Positions 3,057 to 8,957 of a DNA stretch of 64,000 nucleotides are shown piece by piece. The stretch is taken from assembly GCA_944332815.1 (NCBI GenBank), contig CALVKQ010000003.1:2082-66081 (forward strand), in the 5' to 3' direction. The notes beneath the pieces were generated by a model. That model saw only the letters and a list, made by a program, of their open reading frames with translations, had not been told where the DNA came from and did no database searches. Origin of the DNA: an uncultured Clostridia bacterium (GTDB lineage Bacteria > Bacillota > Clostridia > Christensenellales > CAG-917). The stretch's first letter is position 1. The number at the start of each line of letters is the position of its first letter. The position numbers and the translations under genes were made by a program.

Positions 3057-4127
3057 TCAGACTTCGTCGTCATCGCGCAGGGTGACCGCTTTTGCCGCCA
3101 TTCGGCGATGGTCTTGTTCTATTGCCGCATAGTGCTTTTTCGTGGTGTTGACGTCGCGGTGTCCGAGGACGTCCGCCACCATGTAAATGTCGCCCGTCGC
3201 GCGGTAGAGATTGGTGCCGTAGGTGCTGCGCAGTTTGTGAGGGGAGATGCGTTTTAGCGGCGCGGCGACCGCGGCGTACTTTTTCACGAGATTTTCGACG
3301 GCGCGCACGCAGATGCGTTTGACCTGCAATGAAAGAAAGAGCGCGTCGGGGTCGGATATCTCCAGCTTCGGACAGCGCGAGAGCAGGGCTTTGCGTTCGC
3401 CCTCCACATAGTTTTCCAACGCTTCTTTAACGTCGTCGTTGAAGTACAATATGGCGCGGCTGCCTCCCTTTCTCGTGACGGTGAAAGCGTTGGACTCGAA
3501 GTCCACGTCCTTTACGTTCAGCCCCACGCACTCGCTCACGCGGATGCCTGTGCCGAGCAGCAGTGAAAGTATCGCCACGTCACGCGCTCGCGTGTTGAGC
3601 AATATCTTGCGCTGATGCGCGCTCATGCCTTCTCCGTCCTCCGCGGCGGAGAGGATGCGCTCTATCTCGTGGCGTTCCAGACGGATTATCTCCTTGTCGC
3701 GCTGTTTTGGGAGGGATATCTTTGCCGCGACGTTGACGGGGAGTTTGTCTTTGTTGAAAAAGTATTTGAAAAAGCTGCGCACGGTGGAGATCTTTCTCGC
3801 TTTTCCGCGGTCGCCGTTGGCAAATTCCTTGCCTTCGAACTCGTAAAGCGAGAGATATTCCATATAGTTTTCCAGGTGCGTGACCGTCACTTTTTCCATG
3901 TCGGCGAGGGTGATGTCCTCCGCATCCATTCCTTTGAACGGGCGGACGCGCTTTGTGAGGTAATCAAAAAATATGCGCAGGTCGTAAGCGTATCCCAGCC
4001 GCGTCAGCACGGTGGTCTGCGGCTCGACGCCGACGAAAAACTCGTCGCAAAACTCGGGCAGGGTGTCCCTGATCTCGCGCAGTCGGACGCTTACGTCGCG
4101 CTCACGCTCCTTGAAATAGTCCGCCAT
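3057..4127 (-). CDS. Xer-type tyrosine recombinase (about 356 aa)
   Basis: RDVAILSLLLGTGIRVSE, TRKGG, HKLRST, LGH and HY catalytic motifs; N-terminal SAM-like domain; ATG 4127 follows GAGGAG. Confidence 0.9.
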   Translation of the reverse strand: MADYFKERERDVSVRLREIRDTLPEFCDEFFVGVEPQTTVLTRLGYAYDLRIFFDYLTKRVRPFKGMDAEDITLADMEKVTVTHLENYMEYLSLYEFEGKEFANGDRGKARKISTVRSFFKYFFNKDKLPVNVAAKISLPKQRDKEIIRLERHEIERILSAAEDGEGMSAHQRKILLNTRARDVAILSLLLGTGIRVSECVGLNVKDVDFESNAFTVTRKGGSRAILYFNDDVKEALENYVEGERKALLSRCPKLEISDPDALFLSLQVKRICVRAVENLVKKYAAVAAPLKRISPHKLRSTYGTNLYRATGDIYMVADVLGHRDVNTTKKHYAAIEQDHRRMAAKAVTLRDDDEV

Positions 4128-4308
4128 ATAATTCTCCTCGAAGGGCGACCGCGCACTTCTCGGGTTTTTGCGCGCCCTTTTACCATACAGATCATACCAA
4201 ACTATTCGCAAAAAATCAAGGTCCGCGTGCAAAGCGCCGCGATTTAAGTCCCGTCGCCTTGCCAATTTTGCATACTTGTGTTAATATGACCGGAGCAGGA
4301 GGTGCCGC

Positions 4309-4936: not shown

Positions 4937-5779
4937 CTATTCTATTGTGTCGCCCTTTTCGGTATTGCACCTGTGACACAATGTTTGCAAATTATCATAG
5001 GTTGATTTTCCGCCCTTTGCTATCGGTATTATGTGGTCTATTTCAAGTGGTGCGTATCGATCCGAAACGCCACATTTACGACACCTGTAACCATCCCTTT
5101 TATATATTGCAAATCTCATCTTATTGGAAACTTTTCCTCTTTCCACACGGCAAATCGATTCCCAAATCTCGCGATCCAGATAAAAGTTTCCGCTTTTCCG
5201 ATTTAATCGTTTATTTATTGCAAATATATCTTCGGCTGTAAATATCTCACCTTTTTCTTCGCATACGCGCCCATTTATATTCGATCGGTAAAGAGTGACT
5301 CTCAGGCAAAATTGTGTGACAGGTACGCATGTTTTATCTTGCATTAACTTGCATTCGGTTTTTAACAGCCTTTCCGACTTTAATTTTCCGATCGGAGCCG
5401 CAAATTGTCCTGATGTATCAATAGAATTTACTTCGGCAAGATATTCTTTATATCGCGAACTATTATGATCCACCTTTTTTATTTGCTCGAAAAGTTTTGT
5501 TCTAATATATTGCAACTGATAGACCAAATAGTCTTGACAAGATATCATGTTAAAGAAGGTTTGATTATCGTAAGTATGGAATTGATCGAAACATACATAC
5601 GGATAAAAATCGTATCGGCGATTTATTTCGTCAAGCTTTTTTATGCTGATGCTGTTTTCAAGTACAAAATCATGATAATTCCTTTGTTCACGTCGCTTGA
5701 AAAGGCAGAATAGGATGATCGCAGCGGTCAGACCTATTACAGTAGATATGGCTATCGCTAGACCTGAAATCAAAGGCAT
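4937..5779 (-). CDS. HNH endonuclease with N-terminal transmembrane anchor
   Basis: C-terminal RFAIYKRDGYRCRKCG...EIDHIIPIAKGGKSTYDNLQTLCHRCNTEK; N-terminal hydrophobic LAIAISTVIGLTAAIILFCLF followed by KRR; visibly AT-richer than flanks. Confidence 0.88.
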   Translation of the reverse strand: MPLISGLAIAISTVIGLTAAIILFCLFKRREQRNYHDFVLENSISIKKLDEINRRYDFYPYVCFDQFHTYDNQTFFNMISCQDYLVYQLQYIRTKLFEQIKKVDHNSSRYKEYLAEVNSIDTSGQFAAPIGKLKSERLLKTECKLMQDKTCVPVTQFCLRVTLYRSNINGRVCEEKGEIFTAEDIFAINKRLNRKSGNFYLDREIWESICRVERGKVSNKMRFAIYKRDGYRCRKCGVSDRYAPLEIDHIIPIAKGGKSTYDNLQTLCHRCNTEKGDTIE

Positions 5780-5869
5780 TATTCCCTCACGTGGGCTTCA
5801 AAAGTTTTACTTAACAGTATCAATTTCGACAGGATTTGTCAAGAAGCACACACAGGGATCATACCACAT

Positions 5870-6633
5870 TCGACGGAATAGAGGTTTTTCTGCATTTGTT
5901 CTGCGTGCAGAGTCACGTGGGTAGAAAAAGTGCGCCGGCGTCGGGTAAGGATCCACCTGCCCAAAACAGAAAACCGCACTAAACAGTGCGGTTTTCTTGG
6001 TGGGAGGAGGTGGATTCGCAAGGAGAAAGGCGAGTGCTAACGCACCGCCTTCGACGGAATAGCGGTTTGCCGTTATCTGATCTGCGTGCGGAGTTCACGC
6101 AGAACGGCAAACGGCGTCAGCGACGGGTAAGGATCCACCTCTCCAAAACAGAAAACCGCACTTAACAGTGCGGTTTTCTTGGTGGGAGGAGGTGTGTGTT
6201 CGCCATAAGTGTAGGGCATTGAAAGGGTAGTGTTTTGGCGAGCGTTACATCACATCACGGACGATAGGAAAGGGCGAAAGCGTCACGCGGAGCGTGCCGC
6301 CGAACCTGCGCGCATAGAGGAAATTCCTGCAAAAGTTAAGCAACCTGCTGAGTACACATCACGCCCATTGTTTAATGTGGCGCGCATGGTTCGTCCACCG
6401 TCCCTCGCACAAACAAAAACCTCAACCGAATGGTTCGATTGAGGTTTTTGTTGGTGGGAGGAGGTGGATTCGCAAGGAGAAAGGCGAGTGCTAACGCACC
6501 GCCTTCGACGGAATAGCGGTTTGCCGTTATCTGATCTGCGTGCGGAGTTCACGCAGAACGGCAAACGGCGTCAGCGAAGGGTAAGGATCCACCTCTCCAA
6601 AACAGAAAACCGCACTTAACAGTGCGGTTTTCT
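5870..6633. repeat. Array of cassettes at the tRNA-Tyr 3' end: A (6452-6633), B (6180-6451), A' (5998-6179), truncated divergent A'' (~5870-5997)
   Basis: tRNA 3'-end copies TGGTGGGAGGAGGTG(GATTCG) at 5998, 6180 and 6452. A and A' are 182 bp and differ at one base (6124 C vs 6578 A). Confidence 0.92.
6604..6633 (-). terminator. Intrinsic terminator after tRNA-Tyr (copies at 6150-6179 and 5968-5997; different hairpin at ~6413-6451)
   Basis: AGAAAACCGCACT-TAAC-AGTGCGGTTTTCT perfect stem, followed by a U-rich tract on the minus strand. Confidence 0.8.
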
Positions 6634-6718
<85 letters not shown>

Positions 6719-6770
6719 ATGTGATACCCCATAAAATTTCGGAACGAAATTTGATGGGGACCCCCGTTAT

Positions 6771-6846
6771 TGGAGCTGGTGAACGGAATCGAACCATCAA
6801 CCTGCTGATTACAAATCAGCTGCTCTGCCTATTGAGCTACACCAGC
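6771..6846 (-). tRNA. tRNA-Thr(TGT)
   Basis: GCTGA-TTTGTAA-TCAGC anticodon arm, T-loop, CCA. Confidence 0.96.
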
Positions 6847-6895
6847 GTTTGATTTGACGACGGTGCGGTGAGGCGCGGTTGCGGCACCGGCTTTG

Positions 6896-6971
6896 TGGTG
6901 CCTCGGGGCGGACTTGAACCACCGACACAGGGATTTTCAGTCCCTTGCTCTACCAACTGAGCTACCGAGGC
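6896..6971 (-). tRNA. tRNA-Phe(GAA)
   Basis: GGGA-CTGAAAA-TCCC anticodon arm, CCA. Confidence 0.96.
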
Positions 6972-7055
6972 ATACGGTCTAGGGAAGTGGCAGTGACCTG
7001 GGCCACTGCCACTCGACCTTTTGTCCCGACCGAAGAGGTTCGGACGGGGTTTGCT

Positions 7056-7132
7056 TGGCGATCCGGAAGGGGCTCGAACCCTCGACCTCCAGCGTGACAG
7101 GCTGGCGTACTAACCAACTGTACTACCGGACC
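7056..7132 (-). tRNA. tRNA-Asp(GTC)
   Basis: CCAGC-CTGTCAC-GCTGG anticodon arm, GCCA end. Confidence 0.96.
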
Positions 7133-7140
7133 GTAAGTTT

Positions 7141-7217
7141 TGGTGGGCCTTCACGGACTCGAACCGCGGACCAATCGGTTATGAGCCGACCGCTCTAACC
7201 AACTGAGCTAAAGGCCC
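7141..7217 (-). tRNA. tRNA with CAT anticodon, most likely tRNA-Ile2 (lysidine)
   Basis: GGGCCTTTAGCTCAGTTGGTTAGAGC...CGGCTCATAACCG resembles Firmicute Ile2 rather than Met/fMet. Confidence 0.85.
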
Positions 7218-7251
7218 TCATCCGGTGGGAATGTTCCCGTTGTCGCGAATA

Positions 7252-7328
7252 TGGTCGGGGTGAGAAGATTCGAACTTCCGACCCCATGGTCCCAAACCAT
7301 GTGCGCTACCAAGCTGCGCCACACCCCG
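7252..7328 (-). tRNA. tRNA-Pro(TGG)
   Basis: CGGGGTG 5' end, CATGG-TTTGGGA-CCATG anticodon arm, CCA. Confidence 0.96.
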
Positions 7329-7356
7329 TGAGTCGGAAACGATTCGTGACTATGAC

Positions 7357-7385
7357 AATATACAATACGGCAAAGAGAATGTCAA
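7357..7385 (-). promoter_or_regulatory. sigmaA promoter of the tRNA operon
   Basis: TTGACA-17 nt-TATATT just upstream of tRNA-Pro. Confidence 0.8.
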
Positions 7386-7505
7386 CTTTTTTGCGGTGGA
7401 TTTTGAGAGATTTTATTGACAAAATACGTCGCCGACGGAAACCGTCCCGTCAAACTCCTTAAATTGCGCGCTCGGCGGTGCGTTAACATAGCGGAAGGAG
7501 GCAAT

Positions 7506-7814
7506 ATGGGTGTCAGATGCAATGCCGAACGCGGAAGAGTGACGTTCGCTTTTGACGGAGATATCGACGAGTACGCCTGCCGCACGCTGCGCGAAAGCAT
7601 AGACTCGGTGATCGCGGAAAAGCGTCCTGCCGAAGTGGTGTTCGACCTCGGCGGAGTGGCGTTTGTGGACAGTACGGGGCTGGGGCTCATCCTTGGCAGA
7701 TACAAAAAGATAGCGGCGACGGGCGGAGTCCTGCGCCTGAAAGACGTGCCGACGCAGGTGGACAAGGTGTTCAGGGCGAGCGGCGTTTATTCCGTAGTCG
7801 AAAAGGTGAGATGA
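7506..7814 (+). CDS. spoIIAA: Anti-sigma F factor antagonist (STAS)
   Basis: GDID...FVDSTGLGLILGRYKK; AGGAGG RBS; operon context. Confidence 0.93.
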   Translation: MGVRCNAERGRVTFAFDGDIDEYACRTLRESIDSVIAEKRPAEVVFDLGGVAFVDSTGLGLILGRYKKIAATGGVLRLKDVPTQVDKVFRASGVYSVVEKVR

Positions 7815-8269
7815 TGAGTGATAACCATATGAAAATGCTTATCCCGGCATACGGGAAGAACGAGAGTTTCGCACGCAACGCCGTCGCCGGTTTTGCGGTG
7901 GAATGCGCGCCTACGGTGAGCGAGATAAACGACATCAAGACCGCCGTCAGCGAAGCGGTCACCAACGCTGTCGTGCACGCTTACGAGGAGGAGCGCGCGG
8001 AAAACATGATAGAGATATGCGCCGATATCGACAGCGGAAACACTCTGACGGTCAGCGTGCGCGATTTCGGATGCGGCATCGAGGACGTGGCTGCCGCGCG
8101 CGAACCCTTTTTCACGACCAAGCCCGGTGAAGAACGCAGCGGCATGGGGTTCACGATGATAGAAACCTTCATGGACGACATGACGGTGGATTCCGCACCC
8201 GGAAAAGGCACCACGGTGGTGATGCGCAAGAGGATCGGCGGCGATGCTGGCACACGAAGAAACGCTTGA
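7811..8269 (+). CDS. spoIIAB: Anti-sigma F factor / kinase
   Basis: NESFAR...IKTAVSEAVTNA..HAY...PFFTTKPGEERSGMGFT. Confidence 0.95.
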   Translation: MMSDNHMKMLIPAYGKNESFARNAVAGFAVECAPTVSEINDIKTAVSEAVTNAVVHAYEEERAENMIEICADIDSGNTLTVSVRDFGCGIEDVAAAREPFFTTKPGEERSGMGFTMIETFMDDMTVDSAPGKGTTVVMRKRIGGDAGTRRNA

Positions 8270-8957
8270 ATTCATCAAACGCGCCCAAAGCGGAGATGAG
8301 TCGGCAAAGGAGCGGTTGATAACCGAAAATCTGCCGCTCGTGAAGTCCGTCGTAAAGCGGTTCAAAGGCAGGCTGGAATACGACGATCTCATGCAGCTGG
8401 GAGCGATAGGTTTCCTCAAAGCCGTGGCGCACTTCGACACGTCGTTCGGCGTGCGGTTTTCTACGTACGCCGTGCCCATGATCACGGGCGAGATAAAGCG
8501 TTTTCTGCGCGACGACGGCGCGGTGAAAGTGTCAAGGTGGGCGAAAGCGCTCGCGCAGAAAATAGCGGCGTACACCGACCAATTGGCGAAGGAGGACCGT
8601 GCGGAACCCACCGTCGAGGAACTCGCCGAGAAATTCGGGTGCGAGCCTGCCGACGTGGTGTTCGCCATGGACACGGGAAGAGCCGTAGTTTCCCTCAATG
8701 ACACTTGCGGCGACGAGGACGGAACGCCGCTGGGAGAAAGACTGGTGGGCGGCTACGGACCGGATGAGGACATCGACCGCATGATGCTGCGAGAAAGCAT
8801 TAAAAAGCTGCCCGAACGCGAGCGGAAAATAGTCATACTGCGCTATTTCAGGGATAAAACGCAGAGCGAAGTCGCGGCGGAACTCGGGGTGTCGCAGGTG
8901 CAGGTGAGCAGGCTGGAAAGCAGGATACTGGCTAAGATCCGGGATGATATGAGTTGA
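8244..8957 (+). CDS. sigF: RNA polymerase sporulation sigma factor F
   Basis: FSTYAVPMITGEIKRFLRDDG and RYFRDKTQSEVA..LGVSQVQVSRLE; follows spoIIAB. Confidence 0.93.
   Translation: MLAHEETLEFIKRAQSGDESAKERLITENLPLVKSVVKRFKGRLEYDDLMQLGAIGFLKAVAHFDTSFGVRFSTYAVPMITGEIKRFLRDDGAVKVSRWAKALAQKIAAYTDQLAKEDRAEPTVEELAEKFGCEPADVVFAMDTGRAVVSLNDTCGDEDGTPLGERLVGGYGPDEDIDRMMLRESIKKLPERERKIVILRYFRDKTQSEVAAELGVSQVQVSRLESRILAKIRDDMS

What the first reader, a model, noticed from the sequence alone, without database searches (positions are those of the whole stretch)
5870..6654. Stack of tiny non-coding cassettes serially inserted at the tRNA-Tyr 3' end
Seen, reading in tRNA sense (minus strand): tRNA-Tyr-CCA, terminator, cargo A, 21-bp tRNA 3'-end copy (6452-6472), a different terminator, cargo B, 15-bp copy (6180-6194), terminator, cargo A again (181/182 identical), 21-bp copy (5998-6018), terminator, diverged truncated cargo. 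Known: integrative elements that use tRNA 3' ends leave this att duplication and supply a replacement terminator, and E. coli tyrT has ~178-bp repeats containing the tRNA-Tyr 3' end. Inference: the mixed order A-B-A-A'' looks more like repeated site-specific integration of 180-270 bp non-autonomous elements than simple slippage. The locus may be an accreting cassette array with no integrase of its own. Best candidate here for an undescribed system.
Basis: partly seen in the sequence, partly recalled or inferred. Interest (0 to 1): 0.8.

Follow-up and report, generated by a model that had tools for sequence, protein, structure and literature searches.

The report
RtT-like repeat modules behind tRNA genes
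Behind the tyrosine tRNA gene sits a tandem stack of small, structured, non-coding repeat modules that each end in a copy of the tRNA's tail; the same kind of module trails many other tRNA genes in this chicken-gut bacterium and its relatives, and resembles the little-understood RtT repeats behind tyrT in E. coli.

Summary
tRNA-Tyr (6634-6718, minus) is followed by four modules, A-B-A-A', bounded by 21/15/21-nt copies of the tRNA 3' end. A1 and A2 are 181/182 identical.

The modules are not arbitrary cargo. Each starts with a long near-palindrome: tRNA tail, terminator-like hairpin, inverted copy of the tail. Type A then carries a conserved core with covarying helices and three invariant motifs. 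It ends with a direct copy of the local tRNA tail through CCA.

The same core trails at least 13 other tRNA/tmRNA genes in this genome, each time with the local tRNA's own tail. It occurs in 13 of 14 congeneric genomes and patchily across the order.

Module order differs between species (A-B-A-A' against B-A-B'). A tree shows cores exchanged between tRNA loci.

The architecture (internal complement pairing with a tRNA-tail copy, CCA overhang, tandem repeats behind tRNA-Tyr) matches E. coli RtT (RF00391). No Rfam model matches.

I read it as a new, genome-wide, RtT-like family of tRNA-trailer repeat elements. Arrays are reshuffled by recombination at the tail copies. Serial integrase-driven insertion is possible but unsupported: no dedicated integrase, no circles, and no reverse transcriptase in this genome. 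Function and seeding mechanism remain unknown.

The parts
6634..6718 (-). tRNA-Tyr(gta), last gene of the Pro-Met-Asp-Phe-Thr-Tyr operon; its last 21 nt (C56..A76) are the repeated 'tail'
   Evidence: ARAGORN; Rfam tRNA 54.1 bits
6599..6633 (-). module A1: terminator-like hairpin T1 (A-run, 13-bp stem, T-run)
   Evidence: with the flanking tail and inverted tail it folds at -41.7 kcal/mol, z -8.15
6585..6598 (-). module A1: inverted (complementary) copy of the tRNA-Tyr tail (att')
   Evidence: ranks 1 of 44 tRNA tails in duplex energy
6473..6584 (-). module A1 core: TTACCC, CTGACGC, covarying helix P2 with hairpin P3, CTATTCCGTCG, hairpin P4, CTCCTTG
   Evidence: CM R1 72.7 bits; covariation; fold -66.5 kcal/mol, z -8.05 for 6452-6598
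6452..6472 (-). 21-nt direct copy of the tRNA-Tyr 3' end, through CCA
6388..6451 (-). module B: different terminator-like hairpin T2 (6415-6449), then an inverted copy of the tRNA-Tyr T-arm/acceptor region (6388-6410)
   Evidence: 6388-6475 folds at -46.8 kcal/mol, z -8.66
6195..6387 (-). module B body (second, distant type; has GTGACGC at 6280-6286, ends CACTTATGGCGAACACA)
   Evidence: B-type modules behind tRNA-Tyr in G009, G002, G003, G012, G013
6180..6194 (-). 15-nt direct copy of the tRNA-Tyr 3' end
5998..6179 (-). module A2 (T1 at 6145-6179, att' at 6131-6144, core at 6019-6130, 21-nt tail copy at 5998-6018); 181/182 identical to A1
5838..5997 (-). module A' (T1' at 5963-5997, att' at 5949-5961, diverged core at 5838-5948); no tail copy, cut off by low-GC DNA
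   Evidence: (68.9 bits); GC drops to 0.34-0.43 below 5800

Best explanation
The stretch is a tandem array of four members (A, B, A, truncated A') of a family of small non-coding repeat elements. These elements live in the 3' trailers of tRNA and tmRNA genes in this Clostridia lineage. They are built like the E. coli RtT repeats behind tyrT. Shown: each module has three parts. (i) A long near-palindrome made of the preceding tRNA tail (or its copy), a terminator-like hairpin, and an inverted copy of that tail. (ii) In type A, a conserved core with covarying helices and three invariant single-stranded motifs. (iii) A 15-23-nt direct copy of the local tRNA tail, usually starting at C56 and running through CCA. 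Also shown: the family is genome-wide and old. It is kept at the same tRNA loci across species. Module number and order change between species, and cores are exchanged between different tRNA loci. Inferred: arrays grow, shrink and reshuffle by recombination or template switching between the repeated tail-plus-hairpin palindromes, not by a dedicated integrase. Inferred: cores spread between loci by gene conversion or microhomology at the near-universal T-loop sequence. Inferred: the modules are read-through products of the tRNA operon. The inverted tail can pair either back onto the tRNA tail or forward onto the tail copy. The forward pairing gives a minihelix with a CCA overhang that tRNA-end enzymes could trim into a stable small RNA. 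The function of that RNA is unknown.
For: Genome-wide, tRNA-linked. 21 nhmmer hits at E<1e-3 in the 1.63-Mb genome. 16 of the 21 lie within 700 nt downstream of 6 tRNA genes on the same strand, where 1.1% of strand-positions lie within 1.5 kb downstream of a tRNA. The other 5 carry the tails of tRNA-Thr(ggt) and tRNA-Lys(ctt) at contig ends, or of tRNA-Leu(cag) beyond a 15.7-kb insertion. The covariance model adds Ser-tga, Ser-gga, tmRNA, Val-tac and Ala-cgc. Pro-ggg, Pro-cgg, Ser-cga and Leu-tag were found by eye only.

Local tails. 7 of 12 exact copies are 21 nt long. The copies follow the local T-loop variant.

Inverted tail. The local tRNA ranks 1st of 44-45 tails in 6 of 30 first modules and in the top 3 in 15 of 30. 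Three non-adjacent control tRNAs rank 7, 33 and 35. The inverted tail tracks the species' own tRNA-Tyr variant, G000 against G010. Junction hairpins fold at -36 to -47 kcal/mol, z -6.7 to -8.7.

Structure. 71 matches, 66 distinct. 93.5% of cells are paired against 77.4% in shuffles (0 of 500 as high). All 8 pairs of helix 2 show compensatory changes. Slid controls give 25-66% paired. G-U 60 against A-C 16 favours the tRNA-sense strand.

Distribution. Hits in 59 of 108 family genomes. All listed hits above 40 bits are in the genus, which is hit in 13 of 14 genomes. 9 of 151 order genomes at E<=1e-4, outside the family in four other families. 8 of 16 loci from other genera of the family have a tRNA directly upstream. 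Of 5 loci viewed from other families, 2 show a tRNA directly upstream and the rest carry tail-like copies at contig starts.

Dynamics. Order differs among species. In the tree, Tyr-A clusters by locus (SH-aLRT 99). G000 Arg-acg, Arg-cct and Asn-b cluster by genome (98). G010 Tyr groups with G010 Ser-gct (97).

RtT parallel. The Rfam RtT consensus closes with an internal complement paired to the tRNA-Tyr tail copy and ends in CCACCA. There are four tandem copies at tyrT-tyrV.
Against: No direct evidence that the modules are transcribed or processed. The only RNA-library signal is one contig at depth 4.5, and DNA carry-over cannot be excluded. Each module starts with a terminator-like hairpin that should limit read-through. 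The inverted tail is weak or absent within 40 nt of the core in 9 of 30 first modules, ranks 29-41. Some of these instead carry the complement of the T-stem 5' strand, so the closing helix is not universal. In G004 and G010 the tail copy is interrupted by a 21-22-nt insert. Single-sequence folds of 4 of 5 type-A modules are not better than shuffles, z -0.3 to -1.1. In genus g19 and others the core sits in about 380-nt dispersed intergenic repeats far from tRNAs. That fits a mobile DNA element better than a tRNA-trailer RNA. No Rfam RtT hit, so any link to RtT is architectural only. How a module first arrives at a new tRNA with both a direct and an inverted copy of that tRNA's tail is not explained.
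Confidence: 0.6

Rival explanations
1. Each module is a miniature non-autonomous integrative element that excises as a circle and integrates site-specifically at the tRNA tail. It duplicates the attachment site and brings its own terminator. The array is an accreting cassette stack served by an integrase encoded elsewhere.
For: At single-module loci the duplication is exactly 21 nt with different hairpins on the two sides: Ser-gga, Pro-ggg, Val-tac. Hairpin type travels with the body that follows it (T1 with A, T2 with B), and order differs between species. An identity block from the T-loop to CCA is what I recall for T-loop-class tRNA integrases. That is recalled knowledge, not tested here. 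Real mobile elements do use these tails: an integrase gene next to tRNA-Lys(ctt), and a 15.7-kb insertion at tRNA-Leu(cag).
Against: One integrase would have to accept more than 13 different tRNA tails, or each element would need its own. The genome has only 3 tyrosine recombinases. One is Xer-like and syntenic, one is Xer-sized at 322 aa, and one is inside an element at tRNA-Lys. Integration from another tRNA would replace the target's tail with a foreign one. The inverted tail copy in every module is not predicted. Several arrays end with a tail copy plus part or all of the hairpin (39 to about 85 nt repeated), which is not a fixed attachment site. No phage or plasmid relative.
Confidence: 0.15
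2. The core is the cis-acting end of a single-strand DNA transposon relative, a REP/PATE-like element moved by an IS200/IS605-type or RAYT tyrosine transposase. It inserts at hairpin tips. The tRNA-tail palindromes are simply its preferred hairpin targets.
For: The core is flanked by inverted repeats and carries TTAC at both ends in this genus. I recall TTAC as the IS608 target; that is not tested here. It has conserved single-stranded motifs beside hairpins. It occurs as a dispersed intergenic repeat in other genera. Other small palindromic repeats are nested in it. The genome has one RAYT-like Y1 transposase.
Against: The Y1 gene is flanked by its own, different palindromes. Y1_Tnp is found in 34 of 108 family genomes and does not track the element. 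G010 (97% complete) has 10 model hits and no Y1 gene, and G004 likewise has none. The left TTAC is missing in other genera. The G-U excess fits RNA better than DNA.
Confidence: 0.12
3. Neutral local repeats. A single ancestral trailer segment behind each tRNA was duplicated by slippage or unequal crossover, as proposed for the 178-bp tyrT repeats. There is no function and no movement between loci.
For: A1 and A2 are 181/182 identical. Arrays have non-integer copy numbers ending in a tail copy, as at E. coli tyrT. Long palindromes are recombinogenic (established knowledge).
Against: The three motifs are nearly invariant across genera and families, while the helices between them covary. Cores at different tRNAs in one genome are closer to each other than to orthologous-locus cores in sister species. 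Orthologous loci carry different core types in different species: tmRNA and Ser-tga in G009 and G006 against G000.
Confidence: 0.08
4. Debris of repeated integration and decay of large mobile elements (prophages, islands) at tRNA-Tyr, or an assembly artefact of a single repeat.
For: Low-GC genes are lodged in or beside arrays: the HNH gene at 4937-5779 here, and a restriction-modification gene between A modules in G009.
Against: The modules have a conserved structured core shared by many tRNAs. There are no coding remnants. The neighbouring recombinase is syntenic and Xer-like. Multi-module arrays are assembled independently in G002, G003 and G009.
Confidence: 0.04

Closest known systems
RtT RNA / the 178-bp repeats of the E. 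coli tyrT-tyrV operon (Rfam RF00391, gene rttR)
   Same: Tandem non-coding repeats directly behind tRNA-Tyr, on the same strand. Each unit ends in a copy of the tRNA 3' end through CCA. An internal segment complementary to that tail forms the closing helix and leaves a CCA-bearing overhang. The array ends in a partial unit.
   Different: No sequence or model similarity: 0 hits at E<=1 in the whole genome, while the control rings in E. coli only. Here each unit starts with a terminator-like hairpin that extends into a palindrome with the tRNA tail. A distinct conserved core is present. The family trails many different tRNAs and tmRNA, not only tRNA-Tyr. It spans genera and families of Clostridia, and also occurs away from tRNAs.
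Integrative elements that target tRNA 3' ends (att duplication)
   Same: A direct repeat of the tRNA tail flanks inserted DNA, and the tRNA gene stays intact. True examples occur in this genome at tRNA-Lys(ctt) and tRNA-Leu(cag).
   Different: Modules are 180-270 bp with no genes and no dedicated integrase. They carry an inverted tail copy as well. The same core sits at many tRNAs, each time with a matching tail.
REP/BIME/REPIN-type intergenic palindromic repeats and their RAYT transposases; MITEs
   Same: Short, structured, non-coding and multi-copy. They sit after genes, are prone to nesting, and in some genera are dispersed.
   Different: No terminal inverted repeats of its own, and no fixed target duplication. 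There is a strong tRNA-tail association with locus-specific flanks. No co-distribution with Y1 transposases.
tRNA 3' external transcribed spacer RNAs (such as 3'ETS-leuZ in E. coli; recalled, not consulted here)
   Same: Small RNAs that would be released from tRNA operon trailers by tRNA-processing enzymes.
   Different: Those are single, non-repeated spacers without tRNA-tail copies. Expression of the present modules is not shown.

Membership tests
RtT RNA (Rfam RF00391) | Scores at or above the family's gathering threshold (45 bits) with the Rfam covariance model | tested here: not met
   No RtT match at E<=1 in window 5000-8000 or in the whole 1.63-Mb genome. The same model gives 133-138 bits on four E. 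coli units.
RtT RNA (Rfam RF00391) | Tandem units directly downstream of tRNA-Tyr on the same strand, each ending in a copy of the tRNA 3' end with CCA | tested here: met
   compare E. coli.
RtT RNA (Rfam RF00391) | Closing helix between an internal complement and the tRNA-tail copy, leaving a CCA overhang | tested here: met
   Module A fold has a 12+4-bp outer helix and a 5-nt CACCA overhang, -66.5 kcal/mol, z -8.05. The RtT consensus structure is shown. The helix is not universal across the new family.
RtT RNA (Rfam RF00391) | Released as a discrete RNA by processing of the tRNA operon transcript | not testable with these tools
   Only assembled contigs of RNA libraries were available. One contig at depth 4.5 covers 6451-6535.
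tRNA-targeting integrative element | Element encodes, or is served by, a site-specific integrase | tested here: not met
   The modules have no genes. The adjacent recombinase is Xer-like (XerS model 170.9 bits, below its cut-off) and syntenic in G004 and G010. Only 3 tyrosine recombinases in the genome.
tRNA-targeting integrative element | Direct repeats of the tRNA tail at both ends of the inserted DNA | tested here: met
tRNA-targeting integrative element | Excised circles and empty sites | not testable with these tools
   Contig-level read laying only. tRNA-Tyr with no module is seen in G025, which belongs to another family.
MITE | Terminal inverted repeats belonging to the element, plus a short fixed target-site duplication | tested here: not met
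   The inverted repeats are the locus-specific tRNA-tail copies, not element ends. The repeated flank ranges from 12 to about 85 nt.
REP/REPIN with RAYT | Co-occurrence with a cognate Y1 (RAYT) transposase flanked by the same repeats | tested here: not met
   The one Y1 gene is flanked by different palindromes. G010 has 10 model hits and no Y1 gene.
Retroelement-derived repeat | Reverse transcriptase in the genome | tested here: not met
   0 RVT_1 matches in the 97%-complete genome.

The most novel reading that the evidence does not exclude
A previously undescribed class of selfish or domesticated element that hitch-hikes on tRNA gene ends. It has a small conserved structured core. Its two flanks are re-templated on whichever tRNA it lands behind: one inverted and one direct copy of the tail, meeting at the palindromic T-loop sequence. 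No enzyme of its own is involved. Template switching at the terminator and T-loop palindromes would do the work. Its transcripts would be tRNA-tail mimics trimmed by RNase P and 3'-end enzymes. On this reading E. coli RtT is the lone, long-known enterobacterial example of a general phenomenon.
Probability: 0.25. Interest if true: 0.85.

Novelty: new variant of a known kind. Interest (0 to 1): 0.62.

Why it matters
The tyrT repeats and RtT RNA of E. coli are, as I recall, a long-known curiosity without an agreed function or origin. Here the same architecture appears in an unrelated sequence family. It sits behind more than a dozen tRNA and tmRNA genes per genome, and it has a core conserved across genera and families. 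That turns a one-locus oddity into a comparative problem. There are many independent loci at which to ask how a repeat acquires both a direct and an inverted copy of its host tRNA's tail. The same loci can show whether tRNA-processing enzymes release tail-mimicking small RNAs, and what the invariant motifs bind. It also has practical bearings. These palindromic arrays break assemblies: several contigs of this genome end in them. They create false partial-tRNA signals. They also mark hotspots where islands carrying defence-type genes are lodged. The family is a candidate new entry for RNA-family and repeat libraries.

Tried and rejected
Rfam. No family other than tRNA matches the modules at E<=1 in the window or at E<=0.1 in six other loci. 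The C6 locus has no gathering-level hit.

Coding. ORFs across the array, for example 6464-6619 plus strand, are not conserved in other modules. The frame hits stops in the Trp module, by eye. Coding rejected.

Expression. In two RNA libraries only one contig (depth 4.53, 6451-6535) and traces over B lie on the array. tRNA bins are shared with other organisms. This shows nothing either way about transcription. The depth ratio A:B in DNA run X1 (294-656 against 122) fits more than one A per B, but the tool warns that depth is not copy number.

Integrase. The 3057-4265 recombinase was considered as the trans-acting enzyme. Rejected as a specific candidate because it is Xer-like and syntenic.

HNH protein at 4937-5779. 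HNH domain only. It is not found in the four relatives' loci searched, lies in low-GC DNA, and is not general.

Y1/RAYT. Not co-distributed.

Reverse transcription. No RT in this genome.

Phage or plasmid parent. None found.

My first exact-run test of the inverted tail was too crude and mixed in non-terminal tRNAs. It was replaced. A regex census used a faulty motif and is not used. One search replaces it.

Hammerhead, group II intron, integron attC, bridge-RNA and TnpB guide-RNA readings were considered from recalled consensus features. They were dropped because the motifs do not fit. No formal test beyond Rfam.

Literature. Searches found only the E. coli rtT/tyrT mentions. I read passages of 10.1101/2024.07.17.603846 and PMC3318445. 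I also read unrelated passages of PMC9897764 and PMC3718332. I found nothing in print on tRNA-trailing repeats of this kind in Clostridia. The library lacks most subscription papers, and the 1991 rtT paper was not held. Supplements were not consulted.

Full report
WHAT IS THERE. The window's minus strand carries a tRNA cluster, Pro-Met-Asp-Phe-Thr-Tyr (7328 down to 6634). A promoter-like site lies upstream at 7385-7357, 11 of 12 matches.
- Module A1 (6633-6452) ends in a 21-nt copy of the tRNA 3' end.
- Module B (6451-6180) ends in a 15-nt copy.
- Module A2 (6179-5998) ends in a 21-nt copy and is 181/182 identical to A1.
- Module A' (5997 to about 5838) is diverged, 79% over 136 nt, and lacks a tail copy.

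The tail pattern occurs 3 times, against 0 expected. Below about 5800 the GC content falls to 0.34-0.43, and an HNH-domain gene (4937-5779) follows. The four relatives' loci searched hold no match to it, so it looks like a later insertion that cut A' short.

ANATOMY OF A MODULE. Each module opens with a hairpin plus T-run: T1 for type A, a different T2 for B. That hairpin is only the centre of a much longer near-palindrome. The preceding tRNA tail (or tail copy) pairs across the hairpin with an inverted copy of the tail (att') that follows it. These junctions fold at -41.7, -36.3 and -46.8 kcal/mol, with z -8.15, -6.70 and -8.66.

In type A there follows TTACCC, then CTGACGC, then a helix P2 enclosing hairpin P3, then CTATTCCGTCG, then a small hairpin P4, then CTCCTT(A/G)C, and finally the direct tail copy. 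The inverted tail can also pair forward with this tail copy. That closes the whole module into a multi-stem structure with a 5-nt CACCA overhang: -66.5 kcal/mol, z -8.05 in the tRNA sense, against z -5.17 for the opposite strand.

The tool's terminator scan did not call T1 or T2. I infer this is because the T-run is paired to an A-run. Their terminator function is inferred only.

NOT A LOCAL ODDITY. The window lies in a 1.63-Mb, 17-contig, 97%-complete genome. It carries sporulation-type genes next to the array. The public runs that hold the stretch are mostly chicken-gut and gut metagenomes.

A profile of the core finds 21 hits at E<1e-3. 16 of the 21 lie within 700 nt downstream of six tRNA genes (Tyr, Trp, Thr-cgt, Arg-acg, Arg-cct, Asn), on the tRNA's strand. 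Only 1.1% of strand-positions lie within 1.5 kb downstream of a tRNA. The other five are explained as follows. Three sit at contig ends and carry the tails of tRNA-Thr(ggt) and tRNA-Lys(ctt). Two carry the tail of tRNA-Leu(cag), which lies 15.7 kb away. The DNA in between ends in a large serine recombinase gene.

The covariance model adds modules behind Ser-tga, Ser-gga, tmRNA, Val-tac and, across a contig break, Ala-cgc. Modules behind Pro-ggg, Pro-cgg, Ser-cga and Leu-tag were recognised by eye only.

In every case the copy is of the local tRNA's tail. 7 of 12 exact copies are 21 nt long, C56 to A76. They reproduce the local T-loop variant.

THE INVERTED TAIL IS ALSO LOCAL. I computed duplex energies between the 40 nt upstream of the core and 44-45 tRNA tails. 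The local tRNA ranks first in 6 of 30 first modules and in the top three in 15 of 30. Three tRNAs that are not adjacent to the array rank 7, 33 and 35. Nine of the 30 rank 29-41. Several of these instead hold the complement of the T-stem 5' strand plus T-loop.

Between species, the inverted tail follows the species' own tRNA-Tyr variant: G000 against G010. In G013, G009 and G002 one junction type has arms of about 29 nt with only three mismatches and includes the complement of CCA. It looks like a DNA-level inverted duplication.

A CONSERVED STRUCTURED CORE. RNAalifold on 8 modules predicts 23 pairs, 12 with compensatory changes. The larger set has 71 model matches, 66 distinct.
- 93.5% of cells pair, against 77.4% in shuffles (0 of 500 as high).
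- Partners slid by 1-3 columns give 25-66% paired.
- All 8 pairs of helix 2 show changes on both sides.
- The alignment was fitted to the model and the sequences are related, so these figures lean towards the structure.
- G-U pairs (60) outnumber A-C (16). This is mostly a U-G at the base of the outer core helix that alternates with C-G and U-A. It favours folding of the tRNA-sense strand.

The three motifs are nearly invariant from this genus to other genera and families. The helices between them vary from about 20 to 140 nt.

DISTRIBUTION.
- Model R1 hits 59 of 108 genomes of the family. All listed hits above 40 bits are in the genus, which is hit in 13 of 14 genomes.
- In other genera of the family, 8 of 16 fetched loci have a tRNA directly upstream, with the same motifs and a local tail copy.
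- The other 8 are cores without a tRNA within 1.5 kb. Those inspected lie inside intergenic repeats of up to about 380 nt, with 25 hits in G061 alone.
- Across the order, 9 of 151 genomes have hits at E<=1e-4, outside the family in four other families. Of 5 such loci viewed, 2 show a tRNA directly upstream. The others carry tail-like copies at contig starts, in tandem.
- No match in 50,697 phage or 72,556 plasmid records.

DYNAMICS. The tRNA-Tyr trailer differs among congeners.
- A-B-A-A' here.
- B-A-B' in G009 and G002.
- B-A-B-A on a G003 contig.
- A plus partial A in G004.
- One A plus a stub in G010.
- B first in G012 and G013.
- A hairpin-plus-inverted-tail stub without a core in G006.
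- No module in G025, which belongs to another family.

In G009 further A modules lie 24-27 kb away and flank a low-GC restriction-modification gene.

A tree of 36 cores (short alignment, quick search) gives a mixed picture. Tyr-A modules of G000, G002 and G009 form one group (SH-aLRT 99). G000's Arg-acg, Arg-cct and Asn-b cores form a group (98) that excludes the Arg-acg and Arg-cct cores of sister species. G010's Tyr core groups with G010's Ser-gct core (97). So modules persist at a locus over speciation, and cores are also exchanged between tRNA loci within a genome.

MECHANISM. Shown: the breakpoints between module types fall at the tail copies, since T1 or T2 follows CCA directly. Shown: arrays end in a tail copy plus a variable part of the palindrome, repeating 21 to about 85 nt.

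Inferred: arrays change by unequal homologous recombination or template switching at these repeats. A-B-A-A' follows from B-A by one duplication and one deletion. Cores move between loci by gene conversion or by microhomology at the near-universal T-loop sequence. That would explain why identity to the local tRNA starts at C56.

A dedicated integrase is not evident. The neighbouring recombinase is Xer-like (XerS model 170.9 bits, below its cut-off) and is syntenic at 80-82% identity in G004 and G010. There are only three tyrosine recombinases, no reverse transcriptase, and one RAYT-like Y1 transposase with its own, different palindromes. That gene family does not track the element. How a module first acquires both a direct and an inverted copy of a new tRNA's tail is unexplained. 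Fold-back template switching at the terminator and T-loop palindromes is my best guess.

COMPARISON WITH WHAT IS KNOWN. The E. coli K-12 tyrT-tyrV region has four RtT units (133-138 bits). The Rfam consensus closes with an internal complement paired to the tRNA-Tyr tail copy and ends in CCACCA. That is the same design. The RtT model finds nothing in this genome at E<=1, while its control rings in E. coli only. The new family therefore works like RtT but is not a member of it. It differs in four ways: its terminator palindromes, its own conserved core, its presence behind many tRNAs and tmRNA, and its spread over genera and families of Clostridia.

Passages read in two papers describe rttR only as one of the repeated tyrT units with a suggested role in the stringent response. 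The original papers were not available to me. I found no report of such repeats in Clostridia in six searches.

VERDICT. The 'integrating cassette' mechanism is not shown, and it is less economical than recombination among RtT-like repeats. I rate it a new variant of a known kind. It is of real interest because it generalises a long-standing curiosity and offers many loci at which to test it. Expression, processing and function are untested.

Noticed in passing
window 4937-5779 (minus), with TTGACA at 5837-5842 and TACTGT at 5814-5819: A low-GC (0.34-0.43) gene for a 280-aa protein with a C-terminal HNH domain, sitting exactly where module A' is cut off. No match in the four relatives' loci searched. 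A promoter-like TTGACA-17-TACTGT lies inside the remnant of A'.
   Followed up: partly
G000 contigs C1:1-100, C3:52-200, C6:8880-8960, C6:31760-31930, C11 and C16 ends: A palindromic repeat of about 38 nt (CCCCAGCC..GAAAATC..GGGGACCCC type) is nested inside several modules, often in tandem, and lies at several contig ends. It probably causes assembly breaks.
   Followed up: no
G000 C1:269300-269700 and C1:292990-293300; C2:48990-49400: An insert of about 230 nt with inverted ends (MITE-like) is nested at the same position of modules behind Arg-acg and Arg-cct, between TTACC and the GACGC motif. A related copy lies in the Ser-tga array.
   Followed up: no
G000 C6:9050-24965 (locus L008 for the lower end): A 15.7-kb insertion separates tRNA-Leu(cag) from its module array. 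Its array-proximal end encodes a large serine recombinase (Recombinase, Zn_ribbon_recom and Resolvase domains).
   Followed up: partly
G009 contig C5:4900-32500 (loci L023, L024): The tRNA-Tyr array is split. Extra A modules 24-27 kb from the tRNA flank a low-GC N6-methylase/restriction-type gene. A large serine recombinase-like gene, a truncated rolling-circle Rep-like ORF and a type IV pilus cluster lie in between. These names are by eye from the translations; no family search was run.
   Followed up: partly
G000 C1:120235-121071 (locus L075 1402-2238): A single 278-aa Y1 (IS200-like/RAYT-like) transposase gene, flanked on both sides by 44-50-nt palindromes of its own type. They are unrelated to the tRNA-trailer core.
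   Followed up: partly
G000 C16:430-1100: tRNA-Lys(ctt) is followed by a hairpin and then a phage-type integrase gene (416-aa frame). Copies of the tRNA-Lys tail with a module lie at the ends of C11 and C16. This is a classical tRNA-integrated element next to a module array.
   Followed up: no
G000 C5:23352-23480: Behind tRNA-Ile(gat), which follows tRNA-Ala(tgc) in a pair that may belong to an rRNA operon (not checked), an inverted copy of the tRNA tail plus its first downstream bases lies about 100 nt away. It encloses two hairpins, and the unit is repeated. This is a different, core-less design.
   Followed up: no
G012 C1 (locus L100) and G000 C3:134310-134420: The same hairpin-plus-downstream segment follows module B at tRNA-Tyr in G012 and follows tRNA-Ala(ggc) directly in G000. 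This is a further module type shared between different tRNAs.
   Followed up: no
window 7416-8957 (plus): Three adjacent ORFs lie upstream of the tRNA operon and are transcribed divergently from it. By eye they look like a sporulation spoIIAA-spoIIAB-sigF operon; no family search was run. They are conserved in G002, G004, G009 and G010.
   Followed up: partly
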